IMG/VR virus record: IMGVR_UViG_3300045988_157201
DNA from: a virus
DNA: 64,000 bases
Reading direction: 5' to 3' (one strand)
Below, piece by piece: positions 6,309-63,910 of this stretch (position 1 is its first letter; each line of letters opens with the position of its first letter). The notes under the pieces were generated by a model that searched no databases, was not told the DNA's origin, and worked only from the letters and a program-made list of their open reading frames with translations. A program made the position numbers and the translations under genes.

Positions 6309-6505
6309 AGTTGTTATATTATAATATTGTAAGTGATTCAATAAACTTAAAATATGATACAATAAGCAGAACTTACATATAAGCGCTTGCATTTGGGTTA
6401 TATTACATTTTGTTTCAATTAATAAAATAACACTATCAAAATGTAAAAACACAATACAAGTAAAATACAAAGTAAATAACTTCATTTAAGAAAGGATAAA
6501 CACAT

Positions 6506-6952
6506 ATGAAAGTAAATATAAAGAAAATTAATTCAAATGCAACAACTCCGACCTATGGTTCAACCGAAGCAGCAGGACTTGATTTATATGCTTTGATTGA
6601 TACAGAAACTAATTCCTTATTTATTCCGTCACATACAACGGTAAAAATTAATACAGGTATTGCAATGGAAATTCCAAAAGGCTATTTTGGTGCAGTATAT
6701 GCTCGTAGTGGTTTAAGTATCAAGAATGGTCTTAGACCTGCAAATTGTGTTGGTGTTATTGATAGTGACTATCGTGGTGAAATTATTGTAGCACTATACA
6801 ATGACTCTATGGAAGATAGAATTGTTTATAATGGTGACAGGATTGCTCAGATTGTAATTACACCATATCTTCATATCGAGCCTAACGAAGTAACTGAACT
6901 TTCAGATACAGAGCGTGGCGAGGGTGGTTTTGGCTCAACAGGTATGAAATAA
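6506..6952 (+). CDS. dut: dUTP diphosphatase (trimeric dUTPase)
   Basis: All five dUTPase motifs: AAGLDL, ARSG, GVIDSDYRGEI, RIAQ, RGEGGFGSTG. RBS AAGAAAGGA. Confidence 0.9.
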   Translation: MKVNIKKINSNATTPTYGSTEAAGLDLYALIDTETNSLFIPSHTTVKINTGIAMEIPKGYFGAVYARSGLSIKNGLRPANCVGVIDSDYRGEIIVALYNDSMEDRIVYNGDRIAQIVITPYLHIEPNEVTELSDTERGEGGFGSTGMK

Positions 6953-8904: not shown

Positions 8905-8935
8905 TTTTATCACTCCTTTTATATAAATTATTTTT

Positions 8936-8964
8936 AGTATAGCAAAACTAAAATTATAAGTCAA
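8936..8964 (-). promoter_or_regulatory. sigma-A type promoter for int
   Basis: On the minus strand: TTGACT, 17 nt, TATACT. Located about 30 nt upstream of the int start. Confidence 0.5.
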
Positions 8965-9132: not shown

Positions 9133-9630
9133 ATGGAAATGAAAATGAAACAGTATATAATTACCGAACTTAGAGAGAAAGCCGGATTAAGTCAAGAAGA
9201 ACTTGCTAACAAAATCGGAGTAACTCGTCAACAGGTGTCACGATGGGAAAATATTGCGTACAACGAAAGAACAAATATATCAGAAGAAAACACAAAGAAA
9301 TTAGAAGAATTATTTGGTGTAGAAAGTATTAACAATTATAATTTTCTTGATAATAAAGAAGAATTAATACAGTTAGCAAGAGAGGACGGCAGATACGCAG
9401 CTACTTATGCAAAAGAACATAATAAGCAAAGAGAACTGTCAGTTTTTCGTAATAAAGTAGTTAGAGCAATAGAAGGACAAGATAGAGATGGTGTTTTGGG
9501 TAACTTATTACAAATTTCTTGCTTATGCAATTATGAAATCCAAAGTTTTTACACAATGTTACAAAGCAAAGAGTTGTTTAAAGACCTTGTTTATAGTTTT
9601 ATAACAAGTTCGTGTGCAAGCATAGAATAA
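9133..9630 (+). CDS. XRE-family HTH transcriptional repressor (CI-like)
   Basis: N-terminal LREKAGLSQEELANKIGVTRQQVSRWEN HTH_3 pattern. Divergent from int. AAGGAGA RBS. The C-terminal domain shows no S24 peptidase motif. Confidence 0.75.
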   Translation: MEMKMKQYIITELREKAGLSQEELANKIGVTRQQVSRWENIAYNERTNISEENTKKLEELFGVESINNYNFLDNKEELIQLAREDGRYAATYAKEHNKQRELSVFRNKVVRAIEGQDRDGVLGNLLQISCLCNYEIQSFYTMLQSKELFKDLVYSFITSSCASIE

Positions 9631-11493: not shown

Positions 11494-12462
11494 TTATGTA
11501 AGTGTAATCTGCACACGGTCAATGGCTTTACCATTTTTACCTGCATAGCCGTCCTGTCTTGTATCTTCCTCGGTATTATGTTGCCAATCGTACCAATAAT
11601 TATTGCCTTGCCCACAAACCTTATAAGTAGCTTTATAATCACCAACACCACTAAATTCAATTTGAATAGTATCAATAACTTTACCGAGAATACCAGCATA
11701 ACCATTATTGCTATCTGCCTTATTATAACCGTCTACCCAGTCAAGCCAATCACCGTCACGAAGATGTACCCTATATCTGATATTACCTTCCGATACCTTA
11801 ATCATAAGACCGCTGATAGCCTGTTTGAATCTACCTGCAACACCACCAAGACCTTTTACCTCTCTGTACCATTTACCGTCTGCGTAAACACGATATGTAA
11901 TAGTTGGCTTCTTTGGCTTTGAATTACCACCAAGTTGTTTTGTAACCTTCTTGGCTAAATCACCCAAACGGTTATAAAGCCAATCACCCGGACAAGCCTT
12001 GTTATCAAACCATCTATGCACTGTAATAATCATCTCATCCGATTTCGGACTGTAATCAAGTGTCTTATTCTTATCATTAAACCACAAGAGCTTTTTCTTG
12101 CCATTACGCTTGCAAATATCAACACAGAGTTTTATAAGACTGTGGTAAACATTGCTGTTCATCTCGTAAGGATGATATGTTTCACTTGCACACTCAATGG
12201 TGACTGCTCTCTGGTCGTTACTATTGCTCGAAGAACACCAAGAACGATTACCCTCGTCAACGCAGAGTAACATTCTACCATCCGCACCGATACCGTAGTT
12301 ACAGCTTGCCTCTCGGTTGGTATCCATAAAGATATTGCCGAGCGTTTCAACCGAACACTGACCGACAACACAGTGAGGAGTAATGCGGTCAATACTATGT
12401 GTTCTTGCTCCCGAATGATTCGGACTAAGTTTTGTGTAACTAACAAGTTTTGAATTACTCAT
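11494..12462 (-). CDS. endolysin: N-acetylmuramoyl-L-alanine amidase (Amidase_2/PGRP) with ChW-like wall-binding repeats
   Basis: N-terminal ITPHCVVGQ...CNYGIGADGR...VTIECASE...HRWFDNKACPGDWLY. The C-terminus has three repeats of the type DGDWLDWVDG...GYAGILGKVIDTIQIEF. Confidence 0.85.
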   Translation of the reverse strand: MSNSKLVSYTKLSPNHSGARTHSIDRITPHCVVGQCSVETLGNIFMDTNREASCNYGIGADGRMLLCVDEGNRSWCSSSNSNDQRAVTIECASETYHPYEMNSNVYHSLIKLCVDICKRNGKKKLLWFNDKNKTLDYSPKSDEMIITVHRWFDNKACPGDWLYNRLGDLAKKVTKQLGGNSKPKKPTITYRVYADGKWYREVKGLGGVAGRFKQAISGLMIKVSEGNIRYRVHLRDGDWLDWVDGYNKADSNNGYAGILGKVIDTIQIEFSGVGDYKATYKVCGQGNNYWYDWQHNTEEDTRQDGYAGKNGKAIDRVQITLT

Positions 12463-13259: not shown

Positions 13260-13281
13260 AAATAAAATATAAATTCTATCA

Positions 13282-13312
13282 ATGGAGTAACAAAGCGTTA
13301 CTCCATTTTTTT
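13282..13312. terminator. terminator between convergent genes
   Basis: Stem ATGGAGTAAC / GTTACTCCAT, loop AAAGC, then TTTTTT (13307-13312). Confidence 0.7.
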
Positions 13313-13357
13313 AACAGTTTGCTTTTGTATTATCAACAATTAAATGTCTATAAATCA

Positions 13358-15352
13358 TCACTCTACCTCGTTTCCGTCAACTGTAACTTTCCAATCACAG
13401 CGCTCCGCAGGTGCAGAATACATCTTTTTGACTTCTGAAATATTAATACACTTTTCAATATTAACAGTGCTTGGAGTATCAGAATATGCGCCTTTGAGAG
13501 TTCTTGCTTGGATTTCCGTTCCACCAAAATCACAATTTCTGATTGTAATATTCGAGCCTGTTTTCATATGTAAGCCGAAGCTGCTATTATCTGCATTATC
13601 GTGATTTTGATAACCTATCGTGCAATGCGTAGGTATGATTTTACAATTTTCAATTAAGCCGACTTCGCCAAAGCTATGACCGCAACCAAAAACTGGCACT
13701 GTTGTTTTATCTGCATAATCTACGCAATCAGCACGACCGCCCCACTTGAAAATACAATTTGCCACAACCCAATTTGTCGCATAACCTGTTCCACCACTCT
13801 CAAGGTGTATGCCATACCTGATATTTTTACAATCAAATGTAAAACCTTTGATGTGAGTATGGACATTCAAATCAAGATGAAACGGACATTTTTTGATTAT
13901 ATCCCCAGATTTCAAAGTAGACTTATCAAAGCCTGTTGCTCCGTCCCACTTGATTACAGTAGCTTGCGGATTGTATATGTTTTCGGACTCATAGTAAACA
14001 TAGTCTTTAGTCATTACTCCTCTGTAACCTACAAGTCCCACATCGGACATTCCTGCAAACTTGTCTTGCATATCGGTATATGTGCCAGCCATAACAACAA
14101 TAGTATATCTATTATGATAACTGTTATCAGAAAAGCTATCATTAGCAGACTGAATAGAATTGAACTTCGTAACCCCAAACCCCTCAGTGGTTTCATTGTA
14201 ATCGTTTGAAACATACAAATAATGCATTGTGTAATCAGGGGCTTGATACAGTTCAGGCTTAATATGAGACTTTATCAAGTCAGGGTTAGAATAAGCTGTA
14301 CGCTTGTTATTCTGTTCAAGTTGAAGATTACAACTGTTGTCAACAAGTCTATTTGTAGCAACTGCAATTTTAATCGAATTTACGGTTGCATTTTCTGTCG
14401 CTCTATAAGTGGCCGCTGCATTTTTAAAAGCACTAACTTCTGACAAGAGCCAAGATGAACTAATTGCCGTCTGCTCATTTGCAGGATAGAACACACAACC
14501 GCCGTTTGTAATATTAGCAAAATTCTGCAACGATAAGCAATACGCTTTGCCTTGTTCAAGAGTAACCGCACGCTTGAGCTTGAGATAAAAATTAACCGCA
14601 GCGGTAGATGTGCCGCTCAAACTGATTTTATTATTTTTAACAGAAACAGTAACTCCACTTGCTGTCTGTTCTGTATCTTCAAGTGAACTAAGATTAATAC
14701 TTTTTGTTATATCTAAAAGAGAACTTTCATCAAGTTTATTGTTTAAAAGGTTTGTCATTTCAACTTTTGTATAAGCATTGTTTATCCCATAACCTTCAAG
14801 CGTAGTTGACTTATTAGCTTTTGCAATCTCAATCTTTTCTAACGCTTGAGTTATTGCCTTATTCGTCAAAGGATTTACCGAAATATCACTAAGTTCTGTA
14901 TCCATAGCGACAGTACCCTCAGGTGTTAAAACAGCCACTTTAGCCAACGCCTCAACTAAAGCTGTGAAGAAGTTTGATTTTTCAATCTCTTGGTTTGCAA
15001 CTGACGAATATGTAACAATATTAATACCACCAAAAGACAAAGTTCCTTCATCACTCTGCACAACAATCTCTCCTGCTGATGTTCCTCTGTTAGCTGTCAA
15101 AGCCCCATTAACAGGCAACTCAACTTTTCCTTTAATTGCAGAAAGAGTATTGACAGTAAGACAACAAGCGTTGCCTTTAGAGTCAGTGGCTTTGTAAAAA
15201 ATGTTTGTGCTATCGCTCAAATCTATTGGCTCGTCACCGTCACACAGAATAAAAACAGGATGTTTAATCAATGCTTCATTCTGATATGTTACAATATTTA
15301 CATTATTATTTATCCAACAATTTACTTTGTATTGAATATTTTTTGCTTTCAA
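13358..15352 (-). CDS. tail fibre / receptor-binding protein with beta-helix C-terminal domain
   Basis: 664 aa, TTG start after GAGGTGA. The N-terminal roughly 120 aa resemble the BppU-type baseplate attachment domain. The C-terminal half has beta-helix-like repeats (IENCKII, ITIRNCDFGG). Last structural gene. Confidence 0.6.
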   Translation of the reverse strand: MKAKNIQYKVNCWINNNVNIVTYQNEALIKHPVFILCDGDEPIDLSDSTNIFYKATDSKGNACCLTVNTLSAIKGKVELPVNGALTANRGTSAGEIVVQSDEGTLSFGGINIVTYSSVANQEIEKSNFFTALVEALAKVAVLTPEGTVAMDTELSDISVNPLTNKAITQALEKIEIAKANKSTTLEGYGINNAYTKVEMTNLLNNKLDESSLLDITKSINLSSLEDTEQTASGVTVSVKNNKISLSGTSTAAVNFYLKLKRAVTLEQGKAYCLSLQNFANITNGGCVFYPANEQTAISSSWLLSEVSAFKNAAATYRATENATVNSIKIAVATNRLVDNSCNLQLEQNNKRTAYSNPDLIKSHIKPELYQAPDYTMHYLYVSNDYNETTEGFGVTKFNSIQSANDSFSDNSYHNRYTIVVMAGTYTDMQDKFAGMSDVGLVGYRGVMTKDYVYYESENIYNPQATVIKWDGATGFDKSTLKSGDIIKKCPFHLDLNVHTHIKGFTFDCKNIRYGIHLESGGTGYATNWVVANCIFKWGGRADCVDYADKTTVPVFGCGHSFGEVGLIENCKIIPTHCTIGYQNHDNADNSSFGLHMKTGSNITIRNCDFGGTEIQARTLKGAYSDTPSTVNIEKCINISEVKKMYSAPAERCDWKVTVDGNEVE

Positions 15353-15366
15353 GTTATCACCTCATT

Positions 15367-17904
15367 CTATTCACTGAAAGTCCAAGCTGACTCAATAACA
15401 CTTGTTTGATTTATAGTGCTAAATAGTTTTGTAAATTTCATTTTTAAAGGTTTTGTATTATAGTCTGTATTAAAAGTCAAACTGAAATCAGTATCATCGT
15501 CATACCTAATGTGCATAGCCATAAAAACAGGATATTGACAAATCCCTGACTTCGTTTCTAAAATTACAGAATATCCTAAATACATATCTTCTATATTAAA
15601 TTCGTTGATTTTTAAAATATTTGCTGTACCAACGCTAAATTCATAGCAGTGCTTGCTTATATAAGAATTAAAATCCGATATTACTTCGTTATAAATACTA
15701 TCCAAAGTATTTATAATATCTGTGGAGGTATAAGTATCACTAAAGGTGGCATTTTCGTTAGTCCAATCTCCCTCAATAATAAAATCATTCAATGCCAAAA
15801 TTTCTTTTGATGATAATATTGAGGTGTTTATACCTTTGCTTTCCTTATCTTTAACCATCTTGTAATTCAATGAAAACTTAAGAGAAATTTCTTTCATTTT
15901 ATTATAGTTTTGGTTGTAAGATTTAAGGGCATTATCATAAGACTTCCTTACATTTTCATAAGCATTTGCGGCTTCATATAATTCATTATATAAATTTTTA
16001 CTATGATAATTTTTATAATCGTTAATCGGTTTATCACTTGATGTTAATTCCGCAGTTGCCAAAGGGTAGTCTGTTATATATTTAACTCCACTCGGATAAC
16101 CGTTTGGATAATCGTCAGCTAAATAAATATTAATTTTATCAGCTACACTTCTATAAGAAGTTAACGCCTCTGAAACTTTAGTTTTTAGCTTAACTGTTTC
16201 AAGATTAGCTTCGATTAATTTCCGTGCATAATTAGTATAAGTGCTTCGATTATTTTCTATTTCTTTCAAAAAAGACTGAACTGCGGCAAGCAAAGTCCTG
16301 TTCTTGTCCTTATCAGCAATAAAATCCATATAACTTAAGTAACTATCAAAATTGTATAAAATATTATTACCTGTCGGATTGATTAAGCCAAGTCCGTACT
16401 TATCATCTGCCGAATGAACTCTTAAAGCTGTGACGCATCTACTATCAGTAGTATGCATATTTGTTTGTTTTATCGCATTATCCCAAGATAAATATAAGGA
16501 AGATTGACAACCTAATTTTCCACCAACAAATCCTTTAAGAGAATCTTCATCAACCGTACCACTGATAATATGAATTAATTTTCTATCAGTATCAAAAATA
16601 AAGTAACATTGATATGCTGATTGTACATCGTTAATAAGAAACGAGTATAAATTTACATTGTCCAAATCATCAAAAGTTCTATACTTTGAACAAACATTCG
16701 GAGAAATATATCCAATATTCCAAGTGGGAATAAAGTCTAATATCTGATTTATTAATCCCCTGTCCATTCTTTGCGGAGAGCAATAGGGAATAGGTACACT
16801 TGCTCCCGAAGTTGAGTAATCTCTAAGCCAAGTATTCCCCTGTACAACATCAACTATTTTATCAGGAATATACAGAGGAAGTGTGCTTTTTGATAAAGAA
16901 AAAGTCTTTTTAGAAAGTGTATATTCATAACTATATGCTGTTATATTTTTATACGGAATTACACCTTCGTTAATTTCTTCAATTGAAGTTACCACCCACC
17001 ATTTTGCACCACAAGTAAATTCTTTCAATCCCTCAGATGAACCCTCAAAAGAAGTACAATATCTTTGACCGCTGAACACTTTTATATAGCCATATTTAGG
17101 CGAGTAACCACGGTACGAGTCCTCACTACTTCCATCGTGTTCCAAGTCAAAGAATTCAATCCTAATGTAACCGGTTGTTAGTCGCTCTTCACTATCATCG
17201 TCATAAGGAAATTTAATCTCTACTCTACCTATTGGTAAATATTTAGCGTAGTGTTCTTCCATTCCTTCTTGAACACCAAGATAAGTTTTTGAATCAGCTT
17301 CTCTGTAATAATGAATACGATAACCAAATTTGTTACTACTTAGCATAGCCACAACATCACCTGTGGATACTGGAATAAAATCTTCACAGGCATAATGTTT
17401 ATACGCAGAAACACCGTCATAAACAGCAGATAAATTATCAGATTTGTCTAAAATAGAGCCGTTAGAATCGTTGATGTAACAGCCCCATCGCCAATTATAT
17501 CCACTATTACTTCCAATATCAAACAGTTCTACTTCTTCTTTAACTTTAAAGCCTGATAAATAATTATTCATTTCAAAAGTCATACTTGAATCAGGTCTGC
17601 CATCTTTATTGTTTAAATCAACAAAATAATTATCTTTTATTTTATTCCCACTAAATTTAAAATAATCATTATTGTCATTAAGATATAAAATGCTACCTTC
17701 AACAATATCGTCATAGCATTGATTGTCTATGTATTCATATGATTGCATATCATAGATTTTTTGAGGGATTTTAAATGATAGTTCCGAAGCCGTACCAAAT
17801 CTAATATCTTCTGAAAGATTATTAACACCGTTTATTTGACAAAGAATTTTACGCCTGTCTGGTGTGTATAAAACTATTTCTGGTATTTTATTTATTTTAT
17901 TCAT
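15367..17904 (-). CDS. tail-associated (Tal-like) baseplate/tip protein
   Basis: 845 aa, immediately downstream of Dit, with ATGA-type coupling. Position and size are typical of the siphovirus Tal. Ends with TAG. Confidence 0.6.
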   Translation of the reverse strand: MNKINKIPEIVLYTPDRRKILCQINGVNNLSEDIRFGTASELSFKIPQKIYDMQSYEYIDNQCYDDIVEGSILYLNDNNDYFKFSGNKIKDNYFVDLNNKDGRPDSSMTFEMNNYLSGFKVKEEVELFDIGSNSGYNWRWGCYINDSNGSILDKSDNLSAVYDGVSAYKHYACEDFIPVSTGDVVAMLSSNKFGYRIHYYREADSKTYLGVQEGMEEHYAKYLPIGRVEIKFPYDDDSEERLTTGYIRIEFFDLEHDGSSEDSYRGYSPKYGYIKVFSGQRYCTSFEGSSEGLKEFTCGAKWWVVTSIEEINEGVIPYKNITAYSYEYTLSKKTFSLSKSTLPLYIPDKIVDVVQGNTWLRDYSTSGASVPIPYCSPQRMDRGLINQILDFIPTWNIGYISPNVCSKYRTFDDLDNVNLYSFLINDVQSAYQCYFIFDTDRKLIHIISGTVDEDSLKGFVGGKLGCQSSLYLSWDNAIKQTNMHTTDSRCVTALRVHSADDKYGLGLINPTGNNILYNFDSYLSYMDFIADKDKNRTLLAAVQSFLKEIENNRSTYTNYARKLIEANLETVKLKTKVSEALTSYRSVADKINIYLADDYPNGYPSGVKYITDYPLATAELTSSDKPINDYKNYHSKNLYNELYEAANAYENVRKSYDNALKSYNQNYNKMKEISLKFSLNYKMVKDKESKGINTSILSSKEILALNDFIIEGDWTNENATFSDTYTSTDIINTLDSIYNEVISDFNSYISKHCYEFSVGTANILKINEFNIEDMYLGYSVILETKSGICQYPVFMAMHIRYDDDTDFSLTFNTDYNTKPLKMKFTKLFSTINQTSVIESAWTFSE

Positions 17905-51991: not shown

Positions 51992-52252
51992 ATGACAAAA
52001 GAGGCTATATATAAAAGATATAAGAATCAAAAGCCAGTGGGGACTGTATGTTTTAGTAATACTTTTGGGCTTCAGGTTTACGAGCCTGACGAAAACGATA
52101 AATACGATTGTGATTATATATGCAGTTGGTACAGCGGCGAGAGAGAGTGTGGATTCCATAAGCATATGGTGCACTACTCAACTTCGGGTAGGGCTTTTAT
52201 TAGAAAAGGCTCTTTAAGAATCTATCTGGATGAAGTCATGAGAACTGCATAA
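51992..52252 (+). CDS. hypothetical early protein
   Basis: 86-aa ORF with AAAGGAG RBS. Confidence 0.5.
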   Translation: MTKEAIYKRYKNQKPVGTVCFSNTFGLQVYEPDENDKYDCDYICSWYSGERECGFHKHMVHYSTSGRAFIRKGSLRIYLDEVMRTA

Positions 52253-52278
52253 AAAGTCGTTGCGGCGACTAAAAAAAG

Positions 52279-52328
52279 ACCGTTAGGATGCAAGCGTTCC
52301 GCCCATTGTGGGCGGAGGTCGGGAAACC
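52279..52328 (+). promoter_or_regulatory. GC-rich conserved stem-loop element, copy 1
   Basis: Stem TTCCGCCC (52297-52304) / GGGCGGAG (52310-52317), loop ATTGT. Homologous to 54696-54748, including the flanks. Confidence 0.6.
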
Positions 52329-52372: not shown

Positions 52373-52732
52373 ATGATGACATTAGCAAAATTAACAGAAT
52401 TAGTAAATCATTGTGTAAACGCAAAAATTGAGATTGAAGAAATTAGTGCTGATACAAAAATTGAGTTTGAAGTGGAAAGCGACTTTGATGTAGAAACGCT
52501 CAGCGGCGGTTATTACTTCGATGATTTAACAGAAGCATATAGCTATTTAAAAGAATCGCTTGATATACAAACTGACCCTGAAGCGCTTGAGTGCGACGAT
52601 GCTCCCGCAAAAATCAACGGTGTAGGCTTGTATTTACATTTTAATTCAGATGATATAGAAACGATTTGCATTGCATATTACAGCCGCAAAAGTGATACTG
52701 AATTTTATGACAGACTTATTGCGATGTTTTGA
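52373..52732 (+). CDS. hypothetical acidic early protein
   Basis: 119-aa ORF with AAAGGAG RBS. Confidence 0.5.
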   Translation: MMTLAKLTELVNHCVNAKIEIEEISADTKIEFEVESDFDVETLSGGYYFDDLTEAYSYLKESLDIQTDPEALECDDAPAKINGVGLYLHFNSDDIETICIAYYSRKSDTEFYDRLIAMF

Positions 52733-53925: not shown

Positions 53926-54405
53926 ATGAAGTACAAGAATTATGAAGATTACAGAGCAAAAACTCAACAGGAGTTTAACAACCTACCAATTTTCTTTGCG
54001 TTCTCTAATAAACAATTTAAAGAGGCTATGGAAGCAAGAGGACTAAAGGAAACAGACACAGACAAGATATATAGACTTGGTGGCGGCTACGGAGGTTTTT
54101 ATCTCAAAAGCGATGCCGATATTATCAGAGACTATATAAACAAGCCGGCTGAATTGCCCGACCTTATGAAAGACAAGGATTTTGCTATATCAGCGTTTGA
54201 ATATGAAATGAGAAATCACGAATACGCCATTAATTGGCAAGGTGCATATGATGTATGTTCTTGCTTCGGTCATTGTAGGTACGGCGAAAATAAAGGCTAT
54301 ACAGACTATTTAAAGGAAATCGGATACTCAGACGATGTTATACAGTGTTACAAGGAAGCAAGGAAAAGATACTATAAGTATTGCGAAGAAAACGACTTGT
54401 TTTAA
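53926..54405 (+). CDS. hypothetical protein
   Basis: 159-aa ORF with AAAGGAGA RBS. Confidence 0.5.
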   Translation: MKYKNYEDYRAKTQQEFNNLPIFFAFSNKQFKEAMEARGLKETDTDKIYRLGGGYGGFYLKSDADIIRDYINKPAELPDLMKDKDFAISAFEYEMRNHEYAINWQGAYDVCSCFGHCRYGENKGYTDYLKEIGYSDDVIQCYKEARKRYYKYCEENDLF

Positions 54406-54448: not shown

Positions 54449-54649
54449 ATGAGTAAAAAATCCTTGAAAGTTACTAAATGCGAGGGTGAGGGACAAGGCT
54501 CTTGCAAGATGTGTTCCGATAATGGCAAATGGAATAGAAGTTGGATGTGCTTTTTATATCACATAGAGGGATATAAAGGCTGTTACTGTTCAGATTGTGT
54601 CAAGAAAATTGTTCAGAGCGATTCAGGAAAAGAGGGTACAAGGTTATAA
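54449..54649 (+). CDS. small Cys-rich protein
   Basis: Start at MSKKSLKV. Contains CEGEGQGSCKMC ... CYCSDC. Confidence 0.45.
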   Translation: MSKKSLKVTKCEGEGQGSCKMCSDNGKWNRSWMCFLYHIEGYKGCYCSDCVKKIVQSDSGKEGTRL

Positions 54650-54695
54650 AACTATAATATAGAGCCGTCAAAGCCGTCAAGCCGGCTATAAACAG

Positions 54696-54748
54696 TCCAT
54701 TAAGGCTTGAGCGTTCGCCTGCCATTGTGGTGGGCGAGGTTGGAAACA
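54696..54748 (+). promoter_or_regulatory. GC-rich conserved stem-loop element, copy 2
   Basis: Stem TTCGCCTGCC (54714-54723) / GGTGGGCGAG (54729-54738), loop ATTGT. Two extra stem positions relative to copy 1 are G-U/U-G pairs. Confidence 0.6.
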
Positions 54749-54804: not shown

Positions 54805-55812
54805 ATGGATGAATGCACATTAAATAAATTTGAAAATATTGAAATTAAAAACGATACAAGAATTGCAAAAGATGACCTTGCATTTTGTGAATCTAATCAA
54901 AGATTATATCTTAAAGTTCTCAAAAATTATCAAAATATTTATAGCAACTTGCTAAAGGTACTGCAAAAAGAACAATCACAATTTGAAGAAATTGAGATGG
55001 AAAATACTTTTACTAAAAACGGATATTCTTATAAAAAATACGATTATCATTTTTTATCAATAAATAAAGAAGATTTTGCAGAAATAAGATCTGGAGTTCA
55101 CAAAATTTTTATCACAACTATTGTTGATTATTTTATTGAAAAATACGGTGTAGAATTAAATGTAAAATCTGTTGACGAAATACTCGGAATTGAAAAGCCA
55201 AAGCAAGTTGATGGTAATTATTGGGGCTATCGCAACCTAACCAATGAAGAAATTGATAAAATCAAAGAAAGAAACAGAGAATATGAAAAATCTATGGATA
55301 AATACAGAGATAAAGTTATTACAGCAAAAATTGATTTTAATACTATCATTGATGATATTTTCGTCCAATTAGACGGATATTCTTTTGTTGACAAAGTTAA
55401 GAAAGAAATCATTGCTTCTTGCAAGTCTGCTTGTTTTAATCAATATAGAAAATATGGTTATGTTGAATTAAAAAAGAATAAAATTTCAATCGAAACAGGT
55501 TTTGATAGTCATTTTAGTAGTATATGGAAAGAATATGAAGCAAGCACAGATAATTCAGCATTTAGGGCAATAATGAGAGCCTTATCATTCTTTGATAGCG
55601 GAGAAAATAACATTTCCATTTATGATAGCTGGTATTACTCATTCATTTATTACAATAAAAAAGAAATAGATGGTATTTACGGCTTGCATTCCGCATACGG
55701 AAATAAGGTTGAATCATTCAAATTTTATAAAAACGGAAAGTGGGAAATAAAGTTTATTTCAGAGGAAGAAGCACAGAAATTCTTTGATATGTACTGCAAA
55801 TTGGAGGCTTAA
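54805..55812 (+). CDS. hypothetical protein, paralog A
   Basis: 335 aa. The N-terminus (LNKFENIEIKNDTRIAKDDLAFC) and C-terminus (FYKNGKWEIKFISEEEAQKFF) align with the next gene product. Confidence 0.55.
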   Translation: MDECTLNKFENIEIKNDTRIAKDDLAFCESNQRLYLKVLKNYQNIYSNLLKVLQKEQSQFEEIEMENTFTKNGYSYKKYDYHFLSINKEDFAEIRSGVHKIFITTIVDYFIEKYGVELNVKSVDEILGIEKPKQVDGNYWGYRNLTNEEIDKIKERNREYEKSMDKYRDKVITAKIDFNTIIDDIFVQLDGYSFVDKVKKEIIASCKSACFNQYRKYGYVELKKNKISIETGFDSHFSSIWKEYEASTDNSAFRAIMRALSFFDSGENNISIYDSWYYSFIYYNKKEIDGIYGLHSAYGNKVESFKFYKNGKWEIKFISEEEAQKFFDMYCKLEA

Positions 55813-55816
55813 TAAT

Positions 55817-56587
55817 ATGAATTTGTTAGATAAATTTACGGATATAAAAGTAGATAATTCAAAGAGATTACCGGCGGAAGATATAGAACATTGTAAGATT
55901 GAAGAAGAAATGTTTTTGAATGCGTACAACGCATATTCAACGGCTTATAACAGTGTCAAAAATGCTTTTGATAGGCAAAATGAATTTGATGGCGGAAAAT
56001 ATAGCGGCTTTATCTGGGAATATTGCGATTGTGGAGTAAATGATTTAAGAGATAAACTAATATCTCTGAAGTCATCCTTTATAAGTAAGATTGTCGGATA
56101 TTTTAATCGAAAATATCACTTGAATTTATCCAGCAATAACAAATTTGATGGAACTACATATCATAAAGATTTAAGTTTAGATGTTATCACAATAGAGGAA
56201 GTTTTGGATGAATATATTTTCGGAAGATCAGAAGGATTGACATTTACAGAATGTGCAATTAAACAAGCTATGGGGAAGAACGACATCAAACGGCAAGAAT
56301 GGAATAAATGGTGTGAAAAATGGAATTATTCAGTTAAAGGAAGAGCTATTAAATTCCAATACCCAATCACAGACCAAAAACCGCTTCTTTACTTATACGA
56401 TAACAACGAAACAGAAGTATGTTCGACATTAAAACATAATAAGATAGATTCTATTCAAGAATTTAAGAATGGAAGTGTATCAGTTAAGTTTTTGTCTGCT
56501 GAATTTGCATTAGAATTTGCAAAGAAATATCTTGGATATATTGAAATGACCGATGAAGAAATAGAAAAACTGAAAGCAGGAAATTAA
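55817..56587 (+). CDS. hypothetical protein, paralog B
   Basis: Start at MNLLDKFTDIKVDNSKRLPAEDIEHC after GGAGG. The C-terminus is FKNGSVSVKFLSAEFALEFA. Confidence 0.55.
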   Translation: MNLLDKFTDIKVDNSKRLPAEDIEHCKIEEEMFLNAYNAYSTAYNSVKNAFDRQNEFDGGKYSGFIWEYCDCGVNDLRDKLISLKSSFISKIVGYFNRKYHLNLSSNNKFDGTTYHKDLSLDVITIEEVLDEYIFGRSEGLTFTECAIKQAMGKNDIKRQEWNKWCEKWNYSVKGRAIKFQYPITDQKPLLYLYDNNETEVCSTLKHNKIDSIQEFKNGSVSVKFLSAEFALEFAKKYLGYIEMTDEEIEKLKAGN

Positions 56588-56588
56588 A

Positions 56589-59500
56589 ATGAAATATATT
56601 GTTGAAAATTTGATAATTCCACAAGATAAACGGGCAGAGATTAACAACAAAATTCTTTATTTGATTGACAACGGAATAGCGGAAGAAAACGGAATAACTG
56701 CAACTGACATAGCAAGCTCATACACCGGAAACGGTGGATTAAGTGGAGAAAAATTTTCAAACTATGAAAATTATTATGATTATTCAGAAGCCAAAAAAGA
56801 ATTTGAACAAGGACAGTTTTTTACACCGTATGCCATTACCGATTTTGTAATACAATGTTTGAAGCCGGACAAATTCGATATAATTATGGATTTAACTTGT
56901 GGTCACGGAGCTTTTGTAAATTCCGTTCCCCAGGAAAGTAATTTCTTTGGTTGTGAAATTGATATGAAATCTTATAAGGTTGCAAAATATTTATACCCAA
57001 AAGCAAATATCCAGTGTTCAGATATAAGAGTATATAATCCTGAAATAAGAGCAGATGTCATTGTCGGAAATCCACCATTTAATTTGAAGTGGCAAATCGG
57101 AGATACGACTTATGTATCACAACTATACTACACAATTAAAGCATCGGAGAATATTAAACCGGGTGGTTTAATGGCTCTGGTAGTTCCATCAAGTTTTCTG
57201 GCGGATGATTTTTCCGATAGAGGAATGATAGAAGAGGTTTCAAAAGAATGGAATCTATTATGTCAGTTTGACATTCCTTCAGATACATTCAAAAATCTCG
57301 GCGTTACTAATTTTTCTACTAAAATTATGTTTTTTCAAAAGAAAAGCGAACATATTTTAGATGTAAAATTTAGCACGAAAAAAATTGTAATTGATTGTCT
57401 TAATATAGAATCTTCAAATTTCATTTATGAAAATTATATAAAGCCTGTAATCACTTTAAGAAATGAGTTGAAAAATCGGTTGTTTTTTGAAAATTTACAC
57501 GATGGCAAGACTCAAGAACAAAAACAATTTGAATATAAAGTTAAAAAAATGATGTTTGATATTAAGAGAAATCCTGCTTTACAGGATAAATATGCAAAAT
57601 GCAGCGAGTATCTTTACAAATACCAAACACAGAAAATGCCAGAAGGAATGAAGTATGAAGAATGGGAAAAGAAGAAAATCACGCCTAATAAGGTACTTGC
57701 TTATTTAAGAAAAGTTATCAAATCTGAACATAAAATCGAAATTGATAAGATTGAATTAGTAAAAACTGATTATGGCTTAAAGTTAAAACCATATAGCCGT
57801 AAAATGAAAATCTTATTGAATAAACAATATGGAGATTTTGGAAAATTTGTATCTATTAACGATATTGTTTCAGGTCAATGTTCATATCAATTTGAAAACA
57901 AAAAGTATGAAAAACTTATTGATAAGAAAATTAAAGATTTTCAAAGTAATGAAGTATCATTTAAGGATATGGAACAAAATTCTGATATAATGAAATTTCT
58001 TGATAATTTTTCTATCCACGATTATAACAAAAATGAAACTTATAAGTTGACGGAAAAGCAAAAAGAAGATATAAATAAACTTTTGCAAAAAAGATATGTT
58101 TTCTTGCAGTGGGAACAGGGTAGCGGAAAAACTTTTGCCGGCATAGCTCAAATGGATTATAGATTCCAACACAACAATATCAGAAATGCTTTTGTAGTCT
58201 CTACTGCTATTGCGATAAATAACAACTGGCAAGATTGCCTTGAGGCTTACCATTATGACTATATAAGAATCAATAGTTATTCGGATATTCAGAAAATTAA
58301 AAAAGGACAAATTGTTTTAATTACTCTTGATATACTCAATACTTTACAAAAACATATTAAGAAATTTGTTAAAATGCAATCTCAAAAAGTTATGCTTGTA
58401 ATGGATGAAAGCGATAGCATATCAAATCAAAATAGTAAGAGAACAAAAGCAGTATTAAGTTGTTTTAGAAAAATTAAATACAAAGTATGTATGACCGGAA
58501 CAAGCACACGAAACAATATTTGTGAAATTTACCCTCAACTTGAATTGCTTTACAATAATAGCGTTAATATGTTGTGTGAATGTGAAACTGTTTATATTGT
58601 GGATAAAAATAAGGATTCTGAAACCAAAGGCGAAATTATTTCCGATTTTAATGAACAATATAATAATCCATTCCCAGCATATAAGAAAGGATATTCATTA
58701 TTCAGCAAATGTTTTCTGCCAGATAAAATCACTGTATTTGGAGTTGTTAAAAAGACACAAGATATATATAATTCAGAAGCATTGAAAAGGTTGCTTGACA
58801 AAACAGTAATCACAAGGAAATTTGAAGAAGTCACAGGCAAGAAAATTTACGAAATTAAAAATGTCACTTGTAAATTCACACCGGAAGAAGAAGCACTATA
58901 TTCAATAGCAATAGAGGAATTTTATAAAATGCAATATCTATTTAAGACAACAGGAAACAGCAGAAAAGATGCTATGTTGAGAATCTTAAATCAATTAACT
59001 CTTTTGCTTAAAATATGTGCTTGTCCTCACACATTCAAAGAATATTCTTCAACTGAATTGTCGAGTAAATATAAAAAAGTATTTGAGATGATTGAAAAGT
59101 GGAATAATGAAAGAATTGTAATAGGTGTTCGCCACGTTGACAATGTTTATTCTTATGCCACAGCAATTAAGGAATTATATCCGAATAGACCATTGTTTGT
59201 TATTACCGGAAATAACACGACATTAAAGAAAAGAATATCAATTTGTAATGAACTGAAAAAAACAAGAAATGGTATTTTAATTTGCACACAGCAATCATTA
59301 TCGTGCAGTATGAATATTGACTTTGTAAATAAGTGTATTATTCCAGAATTGCACTGGAATAATGCAAGTATGAGTCAGTTTTATTTTCGATTTATCAGAT
59401 TCACTTCTACGGAATGGAAGAAAATATATTTTGTAACTTATGAAAACAGTATAGAAGGAAATCTGTTAAAAATGATTCTGTGTAAAGAAAAATTGAACCT

Positions 59501-59651
59501 TTTTATGAAAGATGAAAAAGTCGAAGATGATGACCTATATAACAAGTTTGGGATTAACGAAATGATGCTAAAGGCGTTAATGACAAAAGAAAAGGATGAG
59601 AAAGGCAATATTAAAATCTTATGGGGTCATCAAAAAATCACAAACGATTAA
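56589..59651 (+). CDS. N6-adenine DNA methyltransferase fused to an SNF2/DEAD-like helicase
   Basis: The N-terminus has DLTCGHGAF (motif I) and VGNPPFNLKW (NPPF motif IV). The C-terminal half has EQGSGKTF (Walker A), VMDESDSI (DExx), MTGTSTRNN (motif III) and QFYFRFIRF (motif VI-like). Confidence 0.75.
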   Translation: MKYIVENLIIPQDKRAEINNKILYLIDNGIAEENGITATDIASSYTGNGGLSGEKFSNYENYYDYSEAKKEFEQGQFFTPYAITDFVIQCLKPDKFDIIMDLTCGHGAFVNSVPQESNFFGCEIDMKSYKVAKYLYPKANIQCSDIRVYNPEIRADVIVGNPPFNLKWQIGDTTYVSQLYYTIKASENIKPGGLMALVVPSSFLADDFSDRGMIEEVSKEWNLLCQFDIPSDTFKNLGVTNFSTKIMFFQKKSEHILDVKFSTKKIVIDCLNIESSNFIYENYIKPVITLRNELKNRLFFENLHDGKTQEQKQFEYKVKKMMFDIKRNPALQDKYAKCSEYLYKYQTQKMPEGMKYEEWEKKKITPNKVLAYLRKVIKSEHKIEIDKIELVKTDYGLKLKPYSRKMKILLNKQYGDFGKFVSINDIVSGQCSYQFENKKYEKLIDKKIKDFQSNEVSFKDMEQNSDIMKFLDNFSIHDYNKNETYKLTEKQKEDINKLLQKRYVFLQWEQGSGKTFAGIAQMDYRFQHNNIRNAFVVSTAIAINNNWQDCLEAYHYDYIRINSYSDIQKIKKGQIVLITLDILNTLQKHIKKFVKMQSQKVMLVMDESDSISNQNSKRTKAVLSCFRKIKYKVCMTGTSTRNNICEIYPQLELLYNNSVNMLCECETVYIVDKNKDSETKGEIISDFNEQYNNPFPAYKKGYSLFSKCFLPDKITVFGVVKKTQDIYNSEALKRLLDKTVITRKFEEVTGKKIYEIKNVTCKFTPEEEALYSIAIEEFYKMQYLFKTTGNSRKDAMLRILNQLTLLLKICACPHTFKEYSSTELSSKYKKVFEMIEKWNNERIVIGVRHVDNVYSYATAIKELYPNRPLFVITGNNTTLKKRISICNELKKTRNGILICTQQSLSCSMNIDFVNKCIIPELHWNNASMSQFYFRFIRFTSTEWKKIYFVTYENSIEGNLLKMILCKEKLNLFMKDEKVEDDDLYNKFGINEMMLKALMTKEKDEKGNIKILWGHQKITND

Positions 59652-59743
59652 CTAAAAGTAAAAAAGAGAGGTATAAATAAATGAAAGATAATAAATTTAC
59701 AAAGAGAATGAGTGACAAATGGAAATTGGCTTGGCAATAAATC

Positions 59744-59857
59744 TTTAAAGGAACATTATGTTCCTTTAAAAAATAGGCATAAATATCTAATTGGACAAGT
59801 TGTCCAATTAGAAGCATAACAAACGCAAATCTTTAACTGAACAATATGTTCAATTAA
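59744..59857. repeat. three tandem palindromic hairpin units
   Basis: TTTAAAGGAAC-ATTAT-GTTCCTTTAAA (59744-59770), CTAATTGGACA-AGT-TGTCCAATTAG (59787-59811), TTAACTGAAC-AATAT-GTTCAATTAA (59833-59857). Each is preceded by AAAT(A)TCT. A degenerate fourth copy lies at 63925-63951. Confidence 0.8.
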
Positions 59858-63085: not shown

Positions 63086-63910
63086 ATGTCAGAAAAAATG
63101 ATAAAAGGATATAAAGGTTTCAGCAAAGGATTAGTATGCAGAGATAAGCAGTATGCCGAAAACACGGTGTTTAACTGTGAAAGTGGTATGTATTTCTGTG
63201 AAAATCCGTTAAATGTATTGAAGAACTATCCGTTCTATGCCTCAGAAACAAAAAGTTTTTCAGAGTATGCAGAAGTTGAAGCACCAGAAGATGTTACAGA
63301 GAGTAAAGGTAATAAATCTGTTACAAAACAACTTAAAATTGGCAGTAAAATTTCTTTTGATGAATTAATTAAAGCAGGTGTTGAGTTTAATTTGTCAAAA
63401 GCGAAATTTGATAAAGAAAAGTCTATTGCTACTGGCAAATACAGTGGAGCAAGTGCTACGGGTGATTACAGCGGAGCAAGTGCTACTGGTGACTATAACG
63501 GAGCAATGGTTACAGGCATATGCAGCGGAGCAAGTGCTACGGGCAGGCGCAGTGGAGCAAGCGCTGTTGGTTGGCGCAGCAGAGCAATGGTTGTTGGCGA
63601 TTACAGTGGAGCAATGGTTACAGGTTATTTCAGCGGAGCAAGCGCTACAGGCAGGCGCAGTGGGGCAATGGTTGTTGGCGACGATTCTCAAGCTATGTGT
63701 AAAAACAACAGTGTTGCTGTGGCTATTGGTAGAGATTCTATGGCTAAAGGTGATATTGGTTGTTATATCGTTCTGACTGAGGTTAAGTGGGATTTTGAAG
63801 CAGATACGAATAAAATCATTGATTGCAAATGCTTTAAAGTTGATGGCGAGATTATTAAGGCAGATACTTTTTATACATTGGTTGATGGCAAGCCTGTTGA
63901 GGTGGAGTAA
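63086..63910 (+). CDS. repeat protein (9-aa GDYSGASAT-type solenoid-like repeats)
   Basis: 274 aa. N-terminal KGYKGFSKGLVCRDKQYAENTVF domain, about ten 9-residue repeats, then a C-terminal globular part. AAAGGAGA RBS. Confidence 0.6.
   Translation: MSEKMIKGYKGFSKGLVCRDKQYAENTVFNCESGMYFCENPLNVLKNYPFYASETKSFSEYAEVEAPEDVTESKGNKSVTKQLKIGSKISFDELIKAGVEFNLSKAKFDKEKSIATGKYSGASATGDYSGASATGDYNGAMVTGICSGASATGRRSGASAVGWRSRAMVVGDYSGAMVTGYFSGASATGRRSGAMVVGDDSQAMCKNNSVAVAIGRDSMAKGDIGCYIVLTEVKWDFEADTNKIIDCKCFKVDGEIIKADTFYTLVDGKPVEVE
63434..63700 (+). repeat. about ten tandem 27-bp coding repeats
   Basis: G(D/K/R)YSGASATG / GAMVTG units. They generate the spurious overlapping ORFs on both strands (63378-63776, 63395-63958, 63520-63702). 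Confidence 0.85.

What the first reader, a model, noticed from the sequence alone, without database searches (positions are those of the whole stretch)
54805..59651. Three-gene cassette: two paralogous unknown proteins plus an N6-MTase::SNF2-like helicase fusion
The 1020-aa product of 56589-59651 combines a gamma-type N6-adenine MTase (DLTCGHGAF, GNPPF) with a helicase core (GSGKT, DESD, TGTS, QFYFRFIRF). The two genes immediately upstream (335 and 257 aa) are tightly spaced, with 4-nt and 1-nt gaps. They are clear paralogs of each other at both termini and have no motif I can recognise. MTase-helicase fusions are known as antirestriction proteins (P1 DarB) and as parts of BREX- and DISARM-like defence systems. 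This compact architecture with a duplicated partner, preceded by the conserved structured leader (54696-54748), does not match any system I know. It could be an early anti-defence module or a prophage-encoded defence/exclusion system.
Basis: partly seen in the sequence, partly recalled or inferred. Interest (0 to 1): 0.7.

Follow-up and report, generated by a model that had tools for sequence, protein, structure and literature searches.

The report
DarB-like methylase-helicase with conserved partner
A temperate phage of low-GC Gram-positive bacteria carries an early operon with a DNA adenine methylase fused to a DNA-tracking motor, two copies of an uncharacterised partner protein and a self-cleaving RNA in front; the enzyme type is already known as a probable counter-restriction device, but its near-obligatory partner family appears undescribed.

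Summary
The genes are A (54805-55812, 335 aa), B (55817-56587, 256 aa) and C (56589-59651, 1020 aa), separated by 4 nt and 1 nt. A and B are true paralogs, both in phrog_27491. C has an N-terminal YTGxGG (LPD36-like) region, a gamma-class N6-adenine methylase, a helical linker and a SWI2/SNF2 ATPase, with all catalytic motifs intact.

This is the "methylase-helicase dyad" that Iyer et al. (2017) described, with phage P1 DarB as its archetype. The claim that it matches no known system is therefore only half right.

What I found beyond that: C belongs to a very uniform ~1000-aa family in Bacillota, Bacteroidota and their phages. In 150 of 160 loci retrieved with C alone, an A-family gene lies upstream on the same strand, and in 121 of them it is adjacent. 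The A family has no Pfam, NCBIfam, PADLOC or PDB relative. The two-paralog layout (A-type plus short B-type) recurs in three diverged lineages.

The "structured leader" is a Pistol self-cleaving ribozyme (57 bits against a threshold of 34.5). A second copy lies 2.4 kb upstream. It is not specific to the cassette.

Most likely function: an early counter-restriction or self-protection methylation machine. No known defence system matches. Interest is moderate.

The parts
54672..54744 (+). Pistol self-cleaving ribozyme (Rfam RF02679), 60 nt upstream of the start codon of gene A. The predicted cleavage is at the G|U step between 54739 and 54740.
   Evidence: cmscan gives 57.3 bits against a gathering score of 34.5, E 8e-8, with the full model matched. 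The pseudoknot (P1 loop UCAAGCC with GGCUUGA) is compensated in the second copy (UUGC with GCAA), read directly from the sequences. The cleavage position is inferred from the class consensus (PMC4604425) and was not tested.
54805..55812 (+). Gene A, 335 aa, the long (A-type) member of the partner family phrog_27491. It is preceded by an AGGAGG ribosome-binding site.
   Evidence: phrog_27491 at E 3e-35. The AF2 model has pTM 0.73: a mostly helical protein with a C-terminal three-strand-plus-helix unit. No PDB fold match at E<1 and no PDB sequence match. No Pfam, NCBIfam or PADLOC hit.
55817..56587 (+). Gene B, 256 aa, the short (B-type) paralog of A. It lacks two internal segments of A (roughly residues 120-165 and 232-275).
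   Evidence: phrog_27491 at E 3e-21. Outside the window's lineage, its closest relatives are the short copies that sit next to C in the two-copy loci L027 (37% identity) and L144 (34%).
56589..56798 (+). Gene C, residues 1-70: N-terminal helical region with the YTGNGG motif (LPD36-like).
   Evidence: It aligns with the N-terminus of phage D6 DarB, including YTGEGGL. The motif is at residue 45. Y45 is nearly invariant and G47, G49 and L51 are invariant in the family alignment. LPD36 is defined in PMC5512222.
56799..57374 (+). Gene C, residues 71-262: gamma-class N6-adenine DNA methyltransferase domain of the EcoKI/TaqI type.
   Evidence: Pfam N6_Mtase at E 1e-11. PDB sequence hits to StySJI M, TaqI and EcoKI M. 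Motifs FFTP at residue 77, DLTCGHG at 101 and NPPF at 161; their core residues (T79, D101, G105, G107, N161-P162-P163) are invariant in the 21-sequence family alignment.
57375..58040 (+). Gene C, residues 263-484: basic (pI 9.25) helical linker followed by a small alpha/beta unit. No TaqI-like beta-rich target-recognition domain is evident from the predicted secondary structure.
   Evidence: AF2 secondary structure, no Pfam hit, pI.
58041..59651 (+). Gene C, residues 485-1020: SWI2/SNF2-type ATPase (double-stranded-DNA translocase), followed by a low-confidence C-terminal tail and the stop codon.
   Evidence: Pfam SNF2-rel_dom, DEAD, ResIII and Helicase_C. Foldseek matches to Chd1, Mot1, SsoRad54, Ino80 and ZorD at E 1e-17 to 1e-13. 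Walker A GSGKT at residue 511, DESD at 606, TGTS at 636 and Q..R..R at 930; their core residues are invariant in the family.
52255..52323 (+). Second Pistol ribozyme in the same early transcription unit, between ORF 51992-52252 and ORF 52373-52732. It is context for the cassette, not part of it.
   Evidence: 62.4 bits against a gathering score of 34.5.

Best explanation
The cassette is an early-expressed counter-restriction or self-protection module of a temperate Bacillota phage. C is a motor-driven DNA adenine methylase. The SWI2/SNF2 ATPase would track along double-stranded phage DNA while the EcoKI/TaqI-type domain deposits N6-methyladenine. Replicating and progeny genomes would then be marked, or host type I-like enzymes blocked, as proposed for the DarB class. 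A and B are non-catalytic partner subunits that probably form a complex with C. Their genes are translationally coupled to C and sit on its upstream side almost everywhere. They would either load or target the enzyme on DNA or control its activity. The Pistol ribozyme cuts the early polycistronic RNA 65 nt before gene A, releasing an A-B-C message with a 5'-OH end.

Shown: gene structure, domain identities, intact catalytic motifs, homology to the DarB N-terminus, near-obligate A-to-C gene linkage, and ribozyme identity. Inferred: methylation of phage DNA, translocation, the A/B-C complex, the anti-restriction outcome, and the effect of ribozyme cleavage.
For: C has the LPD36-like, methylase and SNF2 architecture with all motifs intact and invariant across the family. 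Its N-terminal 285 residues are homologous to DarB of the P1-like phage D6 (E 5e-16), and it hits the PHROG 'DarB-like antirestriction' family at E 7e-17. The architecture and its proposed counter-restriction role are described in PMC5512222. No nuclease domain was found, and no defence-system model matches A, B or C beyond single domains.

Homologs lie on phage genomes, including Tenacibaculum jumbo phages and Clostridium phage D-1873, and on IMG/VR contigs. In 150 of 160 loci found with C alone, an A-family gene lies upstream on the same strand, and in 121 it is adjacent. In 24 of 25 loci found with A, or with the C hits in the phage collection, C is within about 5 kb.

Long A-family proteins carry the polyvalent-protein domains LPD29 and LPD25. 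LPD29 genes lie near the module in L004 and in a Bacteroides locus, and LPD29 occurs in Aca-regulated anti-defence operons. The cassette sits in the + strand early region of a temperate phage that has an integrase, a repressor-like gene and an endolysin.
Against: No experiment exists for any member of this ~1000-aa family. The mechanism of the archetype DarB is itself undefined, and plasmid-based DarB assays were confounded by restriction alleviation triggered by the DNA alone (PMC11109961). DarB acts as a virion-packaged protein on injected DNA, whereas C lies among early genes rather than structural genes. It therefore could not protect the incoming genome unless it is packaged, which is unknown. 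The SNF2 half did not align with DarB in the tblastn search (one search aligned only residues 12-285). A/B function is inferred from linkage only; they have no recognisable DNA-binding or catalytic fold. In Bacteroidota the module sits at island edges with DUF4121 and DUF4313 genes, so the element type there is not settled.
Confidence: 0.5

Rival explanations
1. It is a defence or superinfection-exclusion system carried by the prophage, working like BREX, DISARM or MADS. C would methylate the lysogen's own DNA, and together with A/B it would block unmethylated incoming DNA without a classical nuclease.
For: The phage is temperate (integrase and repressor-like gene). The best PADLOC and NCBIfam hits for the methylase domain are MADS MAD2 (E 2e-18 and 7e-13), and there are weak hits to the DpdE and DrmD helicases. 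SNF2 ATPases do occur in defence systems; ZorD is among the fold matches. BREX also lacks an obvious nuclease.
Against: The hits cover single domains and fall far below the family cut-offs (47.7 bits against 720 for MAD2). None of the other defining genes (PglZ, BrxC, DrmA/B, other MADS genes) is nearby. A and B match no defence model. The module is also present in Tenacibaculum jumbo phages described as lytic. It associates with domains typical of invading elements.
Confidence: 0.13
2. It is a DNA-metabolism accessory. The SNF2 motor would act in phage recombination, replication-fork or transcription-complex remodelling (like RapA or UvsW). The methylase would mark phage DNA for a phage-internal purpose such as timing of packaging or late transcription, and A/B would be adaptors to the replisome or RNA polymerase.
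For: The cassette lies in the early/replication-side region, on the same strand as a second DNA methylase, a dNMP kinase and a thymidylate synthase further along. Phage SNF2 helicases have been proposed as recombination or RNA-polymerase-recycling factors (PMC7824862).
Against: The methylase and its LPD36-like N-terminus are specifically DarB-like. The fusion partners and neighbours are conflict-type domains, not replication genes. No replisome genes are consistently linked in the loci inspected.
Confidence: 0.15
3. A and B are negative regulators or antidote-like partners that hold a potentially harmful, promiscuous methylase-translocase in check, rather than targeting subunits.
For: Each A-family gene sits upstream of C, usually tightly coupled. 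A and B are mildly acidic (pI 5.5) while the linker and motor of C are basic (pI 9.2). The A family diverges faster than C, for example 28% against 48% identity to D-1873 and 69% against 85% to L004.
Against: At least one locus has an A-family gene with no C nearby (L006). A few C genes lack A (L050, L054, L062, L105). Nothing shows that C is toxic.
Confidence: 0.12

Closest known systems
Phage P1/P7 DarB and the 'DNA methylase-helicase dyad' (LPD36 - adenine methylase - SF2/SNF2 ATPase) of polyvalent proteins (Iyer et al. 2017, PMC5512222)
   Same: It has the same N-terminal YTGxGG (LPD36-type) region, the same EcoKI/TaqI-like gamma N6-adenine methylase with the TP and NPPF motifs, and a helicase-like ATPase C-terminal to it. 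Sequence homology to the D6 DarB N-terminus is direct. It is carried by invading elements.
   Different: It is 1020 aa, against 2255 aa for P1 DarB (PMC11109961) and about 2280 aa for the D6 homolog (6.8-kb gene), with no further domains. The motor half did not align with DarB in tblastn. It is encoded among early genes rather than with virion genes. It is accompanied by a partner family (A/B) unrelated to P1 Ulx. No antirestriction phenotype is known.
Type I restriction-modification methyltransferase core (HsdM2-HsdS) with the HsdR motor
   Same: The methylase domain, and the region just N-terminal to it, align with HsdM of EcoKI and StySJI. An SF2 translocase is coupled to the methylase. A separate, faster-evolving partner protein rich in long helices is encoded next to it. 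There are two paralogous partner genes here, which recalls half-HsdS subunits.
   Different: There is no nuclease domain. The motor is fused to the methylase and is of the SNF2 type rather than HsdR type. A/B show no fold or sequence similarity to HsdS or to anything else in the PDB.
BREX, DISARM and MADS methylation-based defence systems
   Same: They also contain an N6-adenine methylase and SF2/SNF2 helicase domains, and there are weak domain-level matches to MAD2, DpdE and DrmD.
   Different: None of the other defining genes is present, scores are far below the family cut-offs, and the module is carried by phages including ones described as lytic.
Pistol self-cleaving ribozyme (Rfam RF02679; Weinberg et al. 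2015; Harris et al. 2015, PMC4604425)
   Same: The leader matches the full covariance model well above threshold and has the pseudoknot. It sits in a Firmicutes phage context, as is typical for the class.
   Different: Nothing structural differs. Its position directly in front of this cassette is particular to this genome.

Membership tests
DarB-like methylase-helicase dyad (Iyer et al. 2017) | N-terminal LPD36 domain: helical, with a GxG[GAS] motif between helices | tested here: met
   YTGNGG at residues 45-50 lies between predicted helices. It aligns with YTGEGG of D6 DarB. G47 and G49 are invariant in the family. No Pfam LPD36 model matched, so this rests on the pairwise alignment and the motif.
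DarB-like methylase-helicase dyad (Iyer et al. 2017) | EcoKI/TaqI-family gamma N6-adenine methylase with an N-terminal TP motif and NPP[YF] | tested here: met
   FFTP at residue 77, motif I DLTCGHG at 101 and NPPF at 161. Pfam N6_Mtase. PDB hits to TaqI, EcoKI M and StySJI M.
DarB-like methylase-helicase dyad (Iyer et al. 2017) | SWI2/SNF2-clade SF2 ATPase fused C-terminal to the methylase | tested here: met
   Pfam SNF2-rel_dom and Helicase_C. Foldseek matches to Chd1, Mot1, SsoRad54 and Ino80. Motifs I, II, III and VI are intact.
DarB-like methylase-helicase dyad (Iyer et al. 2017) | Delivered with the DNA: virion-packaged, encoded with late or structural genes (as for P1 DarB) | tested here: not met
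   By genomic context only. The cassette lies in the + strand early region at 48-64 kb, while the structural and lysis genes are on the - strand at 11-48 kb. Actual packaging cannot be tested here.
DarB-like methylase-helicase dyad (Iyer et al. 2017) | Protects DNA against type I restriction | not testable with these tools
   This needs phage genetics.
Type I R-M (HsdM/HsdS/HsdR) | HsdS specificity subunit with two target-recognition domains and conserved coiled-coil helices | tested here: not met
   The A model (pTM 0.73) has no PDB fold match at E<1, although HsdS structures are in the PDB to my knowledge. A profile search against PDB sequences found nothing.
Type I R-M (HsdM/HsdS/HsdR) | Endonuclease (PD-(D/E)xK) domain on the motor subunit | tested here: not met
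   No nuclease family was found in C by Pfam, NCBIfam or PADLOC.
BREX / DISARM / MADS defence systems | The full gene set (PglZ and BrxC; DrmA and DrmB; MAD1-8) scoring at family level | tested here: not met
   There are only domain-level hits: MAD2 at 47.7 bits against a cut-off of 720, and DrmD at E 0.005. Neighbouring genes carry none of these families.
Pistol ribozyme (RF02679) | Covariance-model score above the gathering threshold over the full model | tested here: met
   57.3 and 62.4 bits against 34.5, covering model positions 1-68 of 68.
Pistol ribozyme (RF02679) | Pseudoknot between the P1 loop and the P2 internal loop | tested here: met
   Copy 2 pairs UCAAGCC with GGCUUGA (7 bp). 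Copy 1 pairs UUGC with GCAA. The pairing is kept through changes on both sides (sequences).
Pistol ribozyme (RF02679) | Self-cleavage at the conserved G|U step | not testable with these tools
   The predicted sites are 54739/54740 and 52318/52319. An in vitro transcription and cleavage assay is needed.
PHROG families phrog_24008 (C) and phrog_27491 (A, B) | Significant match to the family profile | tested here: met
   C matches phrog_24008 over its full length with E 0 (1355 bits). A and B match the C-terminal 270 positions of the 722-position phrog_27491 profile.

The most novel reading that the evidence does not exclude
The A family is the missing DNA-targeting or loading subunit of a widespread, nuclease-free, type-I-like 'translocating methyltransferase' holoenzyme. 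One A-type homodimer, or here an A:B heterodimer, would dock its long helices onto the helical linker of C. This would set where or on which DNA the motor-methylase acts, defining a new class of mobile-element epigenetic counter-defence machine with an unknown fold. Working out this compact system would also explain how DarB-type proteins work.
Probability: 0.2. Interest if true: 0.7.

Novelty: new variant of a known kind. Interest (0 to 1): 0.45.

Why it matters
How methylase-helicase fusions of the DarB type defeat restriction has been unresolved since the 1980s, and a 2024 study still calls the mechanism undefined (PMC11109961). DarB itself is huge, virion-packaged and hard to assay. The family found here is a compact, uniform ~1000-aa version with one or two small partners. 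It is abundant in gut Bacteroidota and Bacillota mobile elements: more than 1600 clusters at 90% identity for C, and 767 representatives at 50% identity for the partner. That makes it a tractable model. It also gives the partner family, which has no annotation in any library searched, its first functional context. The Pistol ribozyme directly in front of the operon offers a concrete case for asking what these ribozymes do in phage early transcripts, which is also still unknown (PMC6765202).

Tried and rejected
- **Near-identical phage genome.** A megablast of the cassette against 50,697 phage records found nothing. Relatives had to be found at the protein level.
- **Known domains in A/B.** Pfam (also at E up to 10), NCBIfam, PADLOC, a PDB sequence profile search and PDB Foldseek all gave nothing. 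The only structural matches were Tenacibaculum phage homologs in BFVD.
- **A/B as HsdS-like specificity subunits.** Rejected as family membership because there is no fold match. Kept only as a functional analogy.
- **A/B as an acidic DNA mimic of the Ocr/ArdA type.** Their pI is about 5.5, only mildly acidic, so this is not supported.
- **A/B related to P1 Ulx, the small Dar protein encoded next to darB.** There is no similarity.
- **A family related to part of C.** hhalign gave probability 0.6%.
- **N-terminal extensions of long A-family proteins.** Mostly no Pfam domain, with only LPD29 and LPD25 in some.
- **Genes between A-like and C-like in the Clostridia subgroup with a 2-5 kb spacer.** No Pfam hits.
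- **Methylome lead.** The Prevotella intermedia prophage orphan methylases with the putative 'BA' specificity are genes of about 0.8 kb, not this family. A full-text search for 'WviII' returned only irrelevant crystallography papers.
- **Ribozyme as a conserved part of the cassette.** Rejected. It is absent upstream of A in L004, L009, L010 and L013. It lies 1.5 kb upstream in L011 and L012. Only three weak hits were found among about 150 distant loci.
- **Supplementary tables of Iyer et al.** Not held. I could not check whether the A family corresponds to one of their unnamed LPD domains.

Full report
**1. What is there**

The ORF scan shows three consecutive + strand genes:
- A, 54805-55812 (335 aa).
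- B. Its real ATG is at 55817 and it ends at 56587, giving 256 aa.
- C, 56589-59651 (1020 aa).

The window is a temperate phage or prophage of about 31% G+C. It carries an integrase (7705-8964, - strand), a repressor-like gene (9133-9630) and an endolysin (11494-12462, - strand). A large - strand structural block spans 11-48 kb, including a terminase-like gene distantly similar to those of Bacillus phages Staley and Slash and Clostridium phage c-st. A + strand block of small early genes spans 48-64 kb and contains the cassette. IMG/VR holds contigs of 54-128 kb from one sample that are 95-100% identical in these proteins.

**2. Protein C**

Pfam finds N6_Mtase (residues 65-262), SNF2-rel_dom/DEAD/ResIII (485-813) and Helicase_C (827-938). 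The motif order is TP motif FFTP at residue 77, motif I DLTCGHG at 101, then motif IV NPPF at 161. That is the gamma arrangement, and the closest solved methylases are TaqI and the type I HsdM proteins.

The AF2 model (pLDDT 77, pTM 0.55) shows four parts:
- a helical N-terminal region;
- the Rossmann-type methylase;
- a basic helical linker (273-381) followed by a small alpha/beta unit (388-486);
- a two-lobed ATPase.

Foldseek places the ATPase among bona fide SWI2/SNF2 translocases: Chd1, Mot1, Sulfolobus Rad54-like, Ino80 and the Zorya protein ZorD, with E 1e-17 to 1e-13. Judged from the predicted secondary structure, no TaqI-like beta-rich target-recognition domain is apparent, and no nuclease domain was found.

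Residues 12-285 align with the N-terminus of the DarB homolog of the P1-like phage D6 (24% identity, E 5e-16). The alignment includes the motif YTG-x-GGL (C: YTGNGGL; D6: YTGEGGL). This corresponds to the GxG[GAS] signature of the LPD36 domain that Iyer et al. found N-terminal to the methylase in the 'DNA methylase-helicase dyad', which they report as the third most prevalent domain of polyvalent proteins and for which DarB is the archetype (PMC5512222). PHROGs agrees: C is a full-length member of phrog_24008, annotated only as 'helicase', and it also hits the 'DarB-like antirestriction' family at E 7e-17.

**3. The C family**

More than 1600 clusters at 90% identity match at E<=1e-20. The 120 best listed are 984-1033 aa long and, where named, are called 'N-6 DNA methylase', 'DEAD/DEAH box helicase' or 'SNF2-related'. 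In a 21-sequence alignment the core residues of all methylase and ATPase catalytic motifs are invariant.

Carriers include:
- Bacillus, Paenibacillus, Clostridia and Lachnospiraceae;
- many Bacteroidota (Bacteroides, Prevotella, Alistipes, Phocaeicola);
- a few other phyla;
- many IMG/VR contigs.

Among deposited phages, full-length homologs occur in Clostridium phage D-1873 (48% identity), the Tenacibaculum jumbo phages pT24, PTm1 and PTm5 (39%) and human faecal phage contigs.

**4. Proteins A and B**

They are paralogs. BLASTP gives E 1e-7 and 4e-4 for the two ends, and both hit phrog_27491. B lacks two internal segments of A.

An exhaustive profile search found 767 representatives at 50% identity with E<=0.001 and 161 with E<=1e-30. 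Most are solo proteins of about 270-340 aa. Some are 500-1000 aa with the A domain at the C-terminus. A few of the long forms carry the polyvalent-protein domains LPD29 and LPD25.

The conserved features are:
- an N-terminal peptide, L-x-K-F...R....D;
- a helix with F..I..YF..KY;
- an IF.QL.G.SF segment;
- a C-terminal K-N-G strand-helix unit.

The AF2 model of A is reasonably confident (pTM 0.73). It is mostly long helices with a small C-terminal beta-alpha unit. It has no PDB fold match at E<1, and the only BFVD matches at E<=0.001 are the Tenacibaculum phage homologs. There is no PDB sequence match and no hit in Pfam, NCBIfam or PADLOC. A and B are mildly acidic (pI 5.5), so they do not look like an Ocr-type DNA mimic.

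**5. Linkage**

Starting from A (or from the C hits in the phage collection), 24 of 25 loci have a C homolog on the same strand within about 5 kb. The exception, L006, places the A-like gene among DUF932, YAcAr and RelB/Fic genes.

Starting from C alone gives 80 genome loci and 80 IMG/VR loci. Of these 160, 150 have an A-family ORF upstream on the same strand, and 121 have it adjacent (at most 100 nt away). Of the ten without one, six have too little upstream DNA, leaving four genuine exceptions: L050, L054, L062 and L105. The conserved unit is therefore a pair, one A-family gene followed by C.

The two-paralog state is found in the window's lineage (L004/L005, L009-L013, L107-L112) and also in L027 and L144. 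In those two loci, a long A-type protein is followed by a short copy next to C. Those short copies are the closest relatives of B outside its own lineage, at 37% and 34% identity, against about 22% between B and A. B therefore represents an older, distinct subtype rather than a recent duplicate, which suggests that A and B have non-redundant roles.

The A family diverges faster than C: 28% against 48% identity to D-1873, and 69% against 85% to L004.

**6. The leader**

A second copy lies at 52255-52323 (62.4 bits) in the same transcription unit. The pseudoknot is maintained by different sequences in the two copies.

By alignment to the class consensus, cleavage should fall at 54739/54740. That would leave a 65-nt leader with a 5'-OH end on the A-B-C message; this is an inference. 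Pistol ribozymes are known to be concentrated in Firmicutes and next to phage genes, and their biological role is still open (PMC4604425, PMC6765202).

A covariance model built from the two copies found the ribozyme in only some of the near-identical relatives. There it lies 1.5 kb and 4.5 kb upstream of A (L011, L012 and L107-L109). It is absent from L004, L009, L010 and L013. Only three weak hits appeared among about 150 distant loci. It is a mobile feature of these early regions, not part of the cassette.

**7. Mechanism**

The best-supported reading is a counter-restriction or self-protection methylation machine of an invading element. The supporting points are:
- specific homology to the DarB N-terminus;
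- intact methylase and motor;
- no nuclease;
- no match to any defence system;
- presence in phages described as lytic;
- LPD29 and LPD25 as fusion partners or neighbours, with LPD29 recently noted in Aca-controlled anti-defence operons.

The step from architecture to 'processive methylation of phage DNA' is inference, following Iyer et al. The step from gene linkage to 'A/B are subunits of C' is also inference.

Two cautions apply. DarB's own mechanism is undefined, and its plasmid assays were confounded. And C is encoded with early genes rather than virion genes, so it would protect replicating or progeny DNA rather than the incoming genome, unless it is packaged.

The rivals cannot be excluded computationally and are scored in the rival explanations:
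- a prophage-encoded exclusion system;
- a replication or transcription accessory;
- A/B as inhibitors of C.

**8. Comparison and novelty**

The domain architecture of C is a known kind, and the genes already sit in PHROG families and in deposited phage genomes, annotated as 'helicase' and 'hypothetical'. Three things appear new relative to the libraries and papers I could search:
- the compact stand-alone form as a large, uniform family;
- its near-obligate partner family of unknown fold;
- the recurrent A-type plus B-type pair.

I could not check the supplementary domain lists of Iyer et al., so the A family may correspond to one of their unnamed LPD domains. I rate the finding as a new variant of a known kind and of moderate interest.

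Noticed in passing
window 52255-52323 (+) and 54672-54744 (+): Two Pistol self-cleaving ribozymes (62.4 and 57.3 bits; gathering score 34.5) divide the + strand early operon into segments. The first lies between ORF 51992-52252 and ORF 52373-52732, the second directly before gene A. The pseudoknot pairing is kept by different sequences in the two copies.
   Followed up: yes
L001 (Clostridium phage D-1873) 3735-3795: A RAGATH-18 RNA (64.9 bits; gathering score 44.9) lies about 2.3 kb upstream of the A-like/C-like pair in D-1873. This is another ribozyme-associated RNA motif in the equivalent early region of a related phage.
   Followed up: no
window 1871-2926 (+), 3173-3745 (+), 3746-4426 (+): The same phage encodes a second, separate DNA methyltransferase (351 aa, phrog_116, E 8e-44), followed by genes resembling a dNMP kinase and a thymidylate synthase. 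It therefore carries at least two DNA methylases.
   Followed up: partly
window 7705-8964 (-), 9133-9630 (+), 11494-12462 (-): An integrase (phrog_1, E 2.5e-70), an HTH repressor-like gene and an endolysin mark this as a temperate phage. The lysogeny module lies between the + strand nucleotide-metabolism genes and the - strand lysis and structural block.
   Followed up: partly
L023 6585-8765; L028 5576-7939; L032 5401-7974; proteins P0060, P0063, P0097: Long forms of the partner family (650-1000 aa) carry the A domain at the C-terminus. It follows a conserved N-terminal domain (LPD29 in L032), an LPD25 in some, and a short motif of the form NGIEI.F..KP......LKE.GFRWS....WWA. This matches the 722-position architecture of phrog_27491. 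The function of these extensions is unknown.
   Followed up: partly
L014 8966-13731 and L017 8921-10774 (Oscillospiraceae prophages): In one Clostridia subgroup, 2-5 kb holding three to five genes with no Pfam domain lies between the A-like gene and C. This includes a conserved 290-aa ORF. A DUF932 gene lies a few kb upstream.
   Followed up: partly
L069 (Bacteroides ndongoniae) 6112-6750, 13265-13855, 15560-16579; L054 4221-5519: In Bacteroidota the pair sits at the edge of an integrated element, next to host genes (YceG; metK in L054). It is flanked by DUF4121, DUF4313 and an LPD29-DnaJ protein. I did not establish whether these elements are prophages or conjugative transposons.
   Followed up: no
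window 63086-63910 (+): A 274-aa protein (DUF7666, phrog_4433) contains about nine tandem decapeptide repeats of the type GDYSGASATG or GRRSGASA(T/V)G.
   Followed up: no
window 59742-59812: Two perfect hairpins lie back to back just downstream of the stop codon of C (TCTTTAAAGGAAC...GTTCCTTTAAAGA and TCTAATTGGACAA...TTGTCCAATTAGA). The terminator scan scores them on the - strand only. Their role is unclear; they could be operators, a terminator or a recombination site.
   Followed up: no
window 54449-54649 (+) and 53926-54405 (+): Immediately upstream of the ribozyme are a 66-aa cysteine-rich protein that looks like a zinc ribbon and a DUF7659 protein (E 2e-22). Both are uncharacterised.
   Followed up: no
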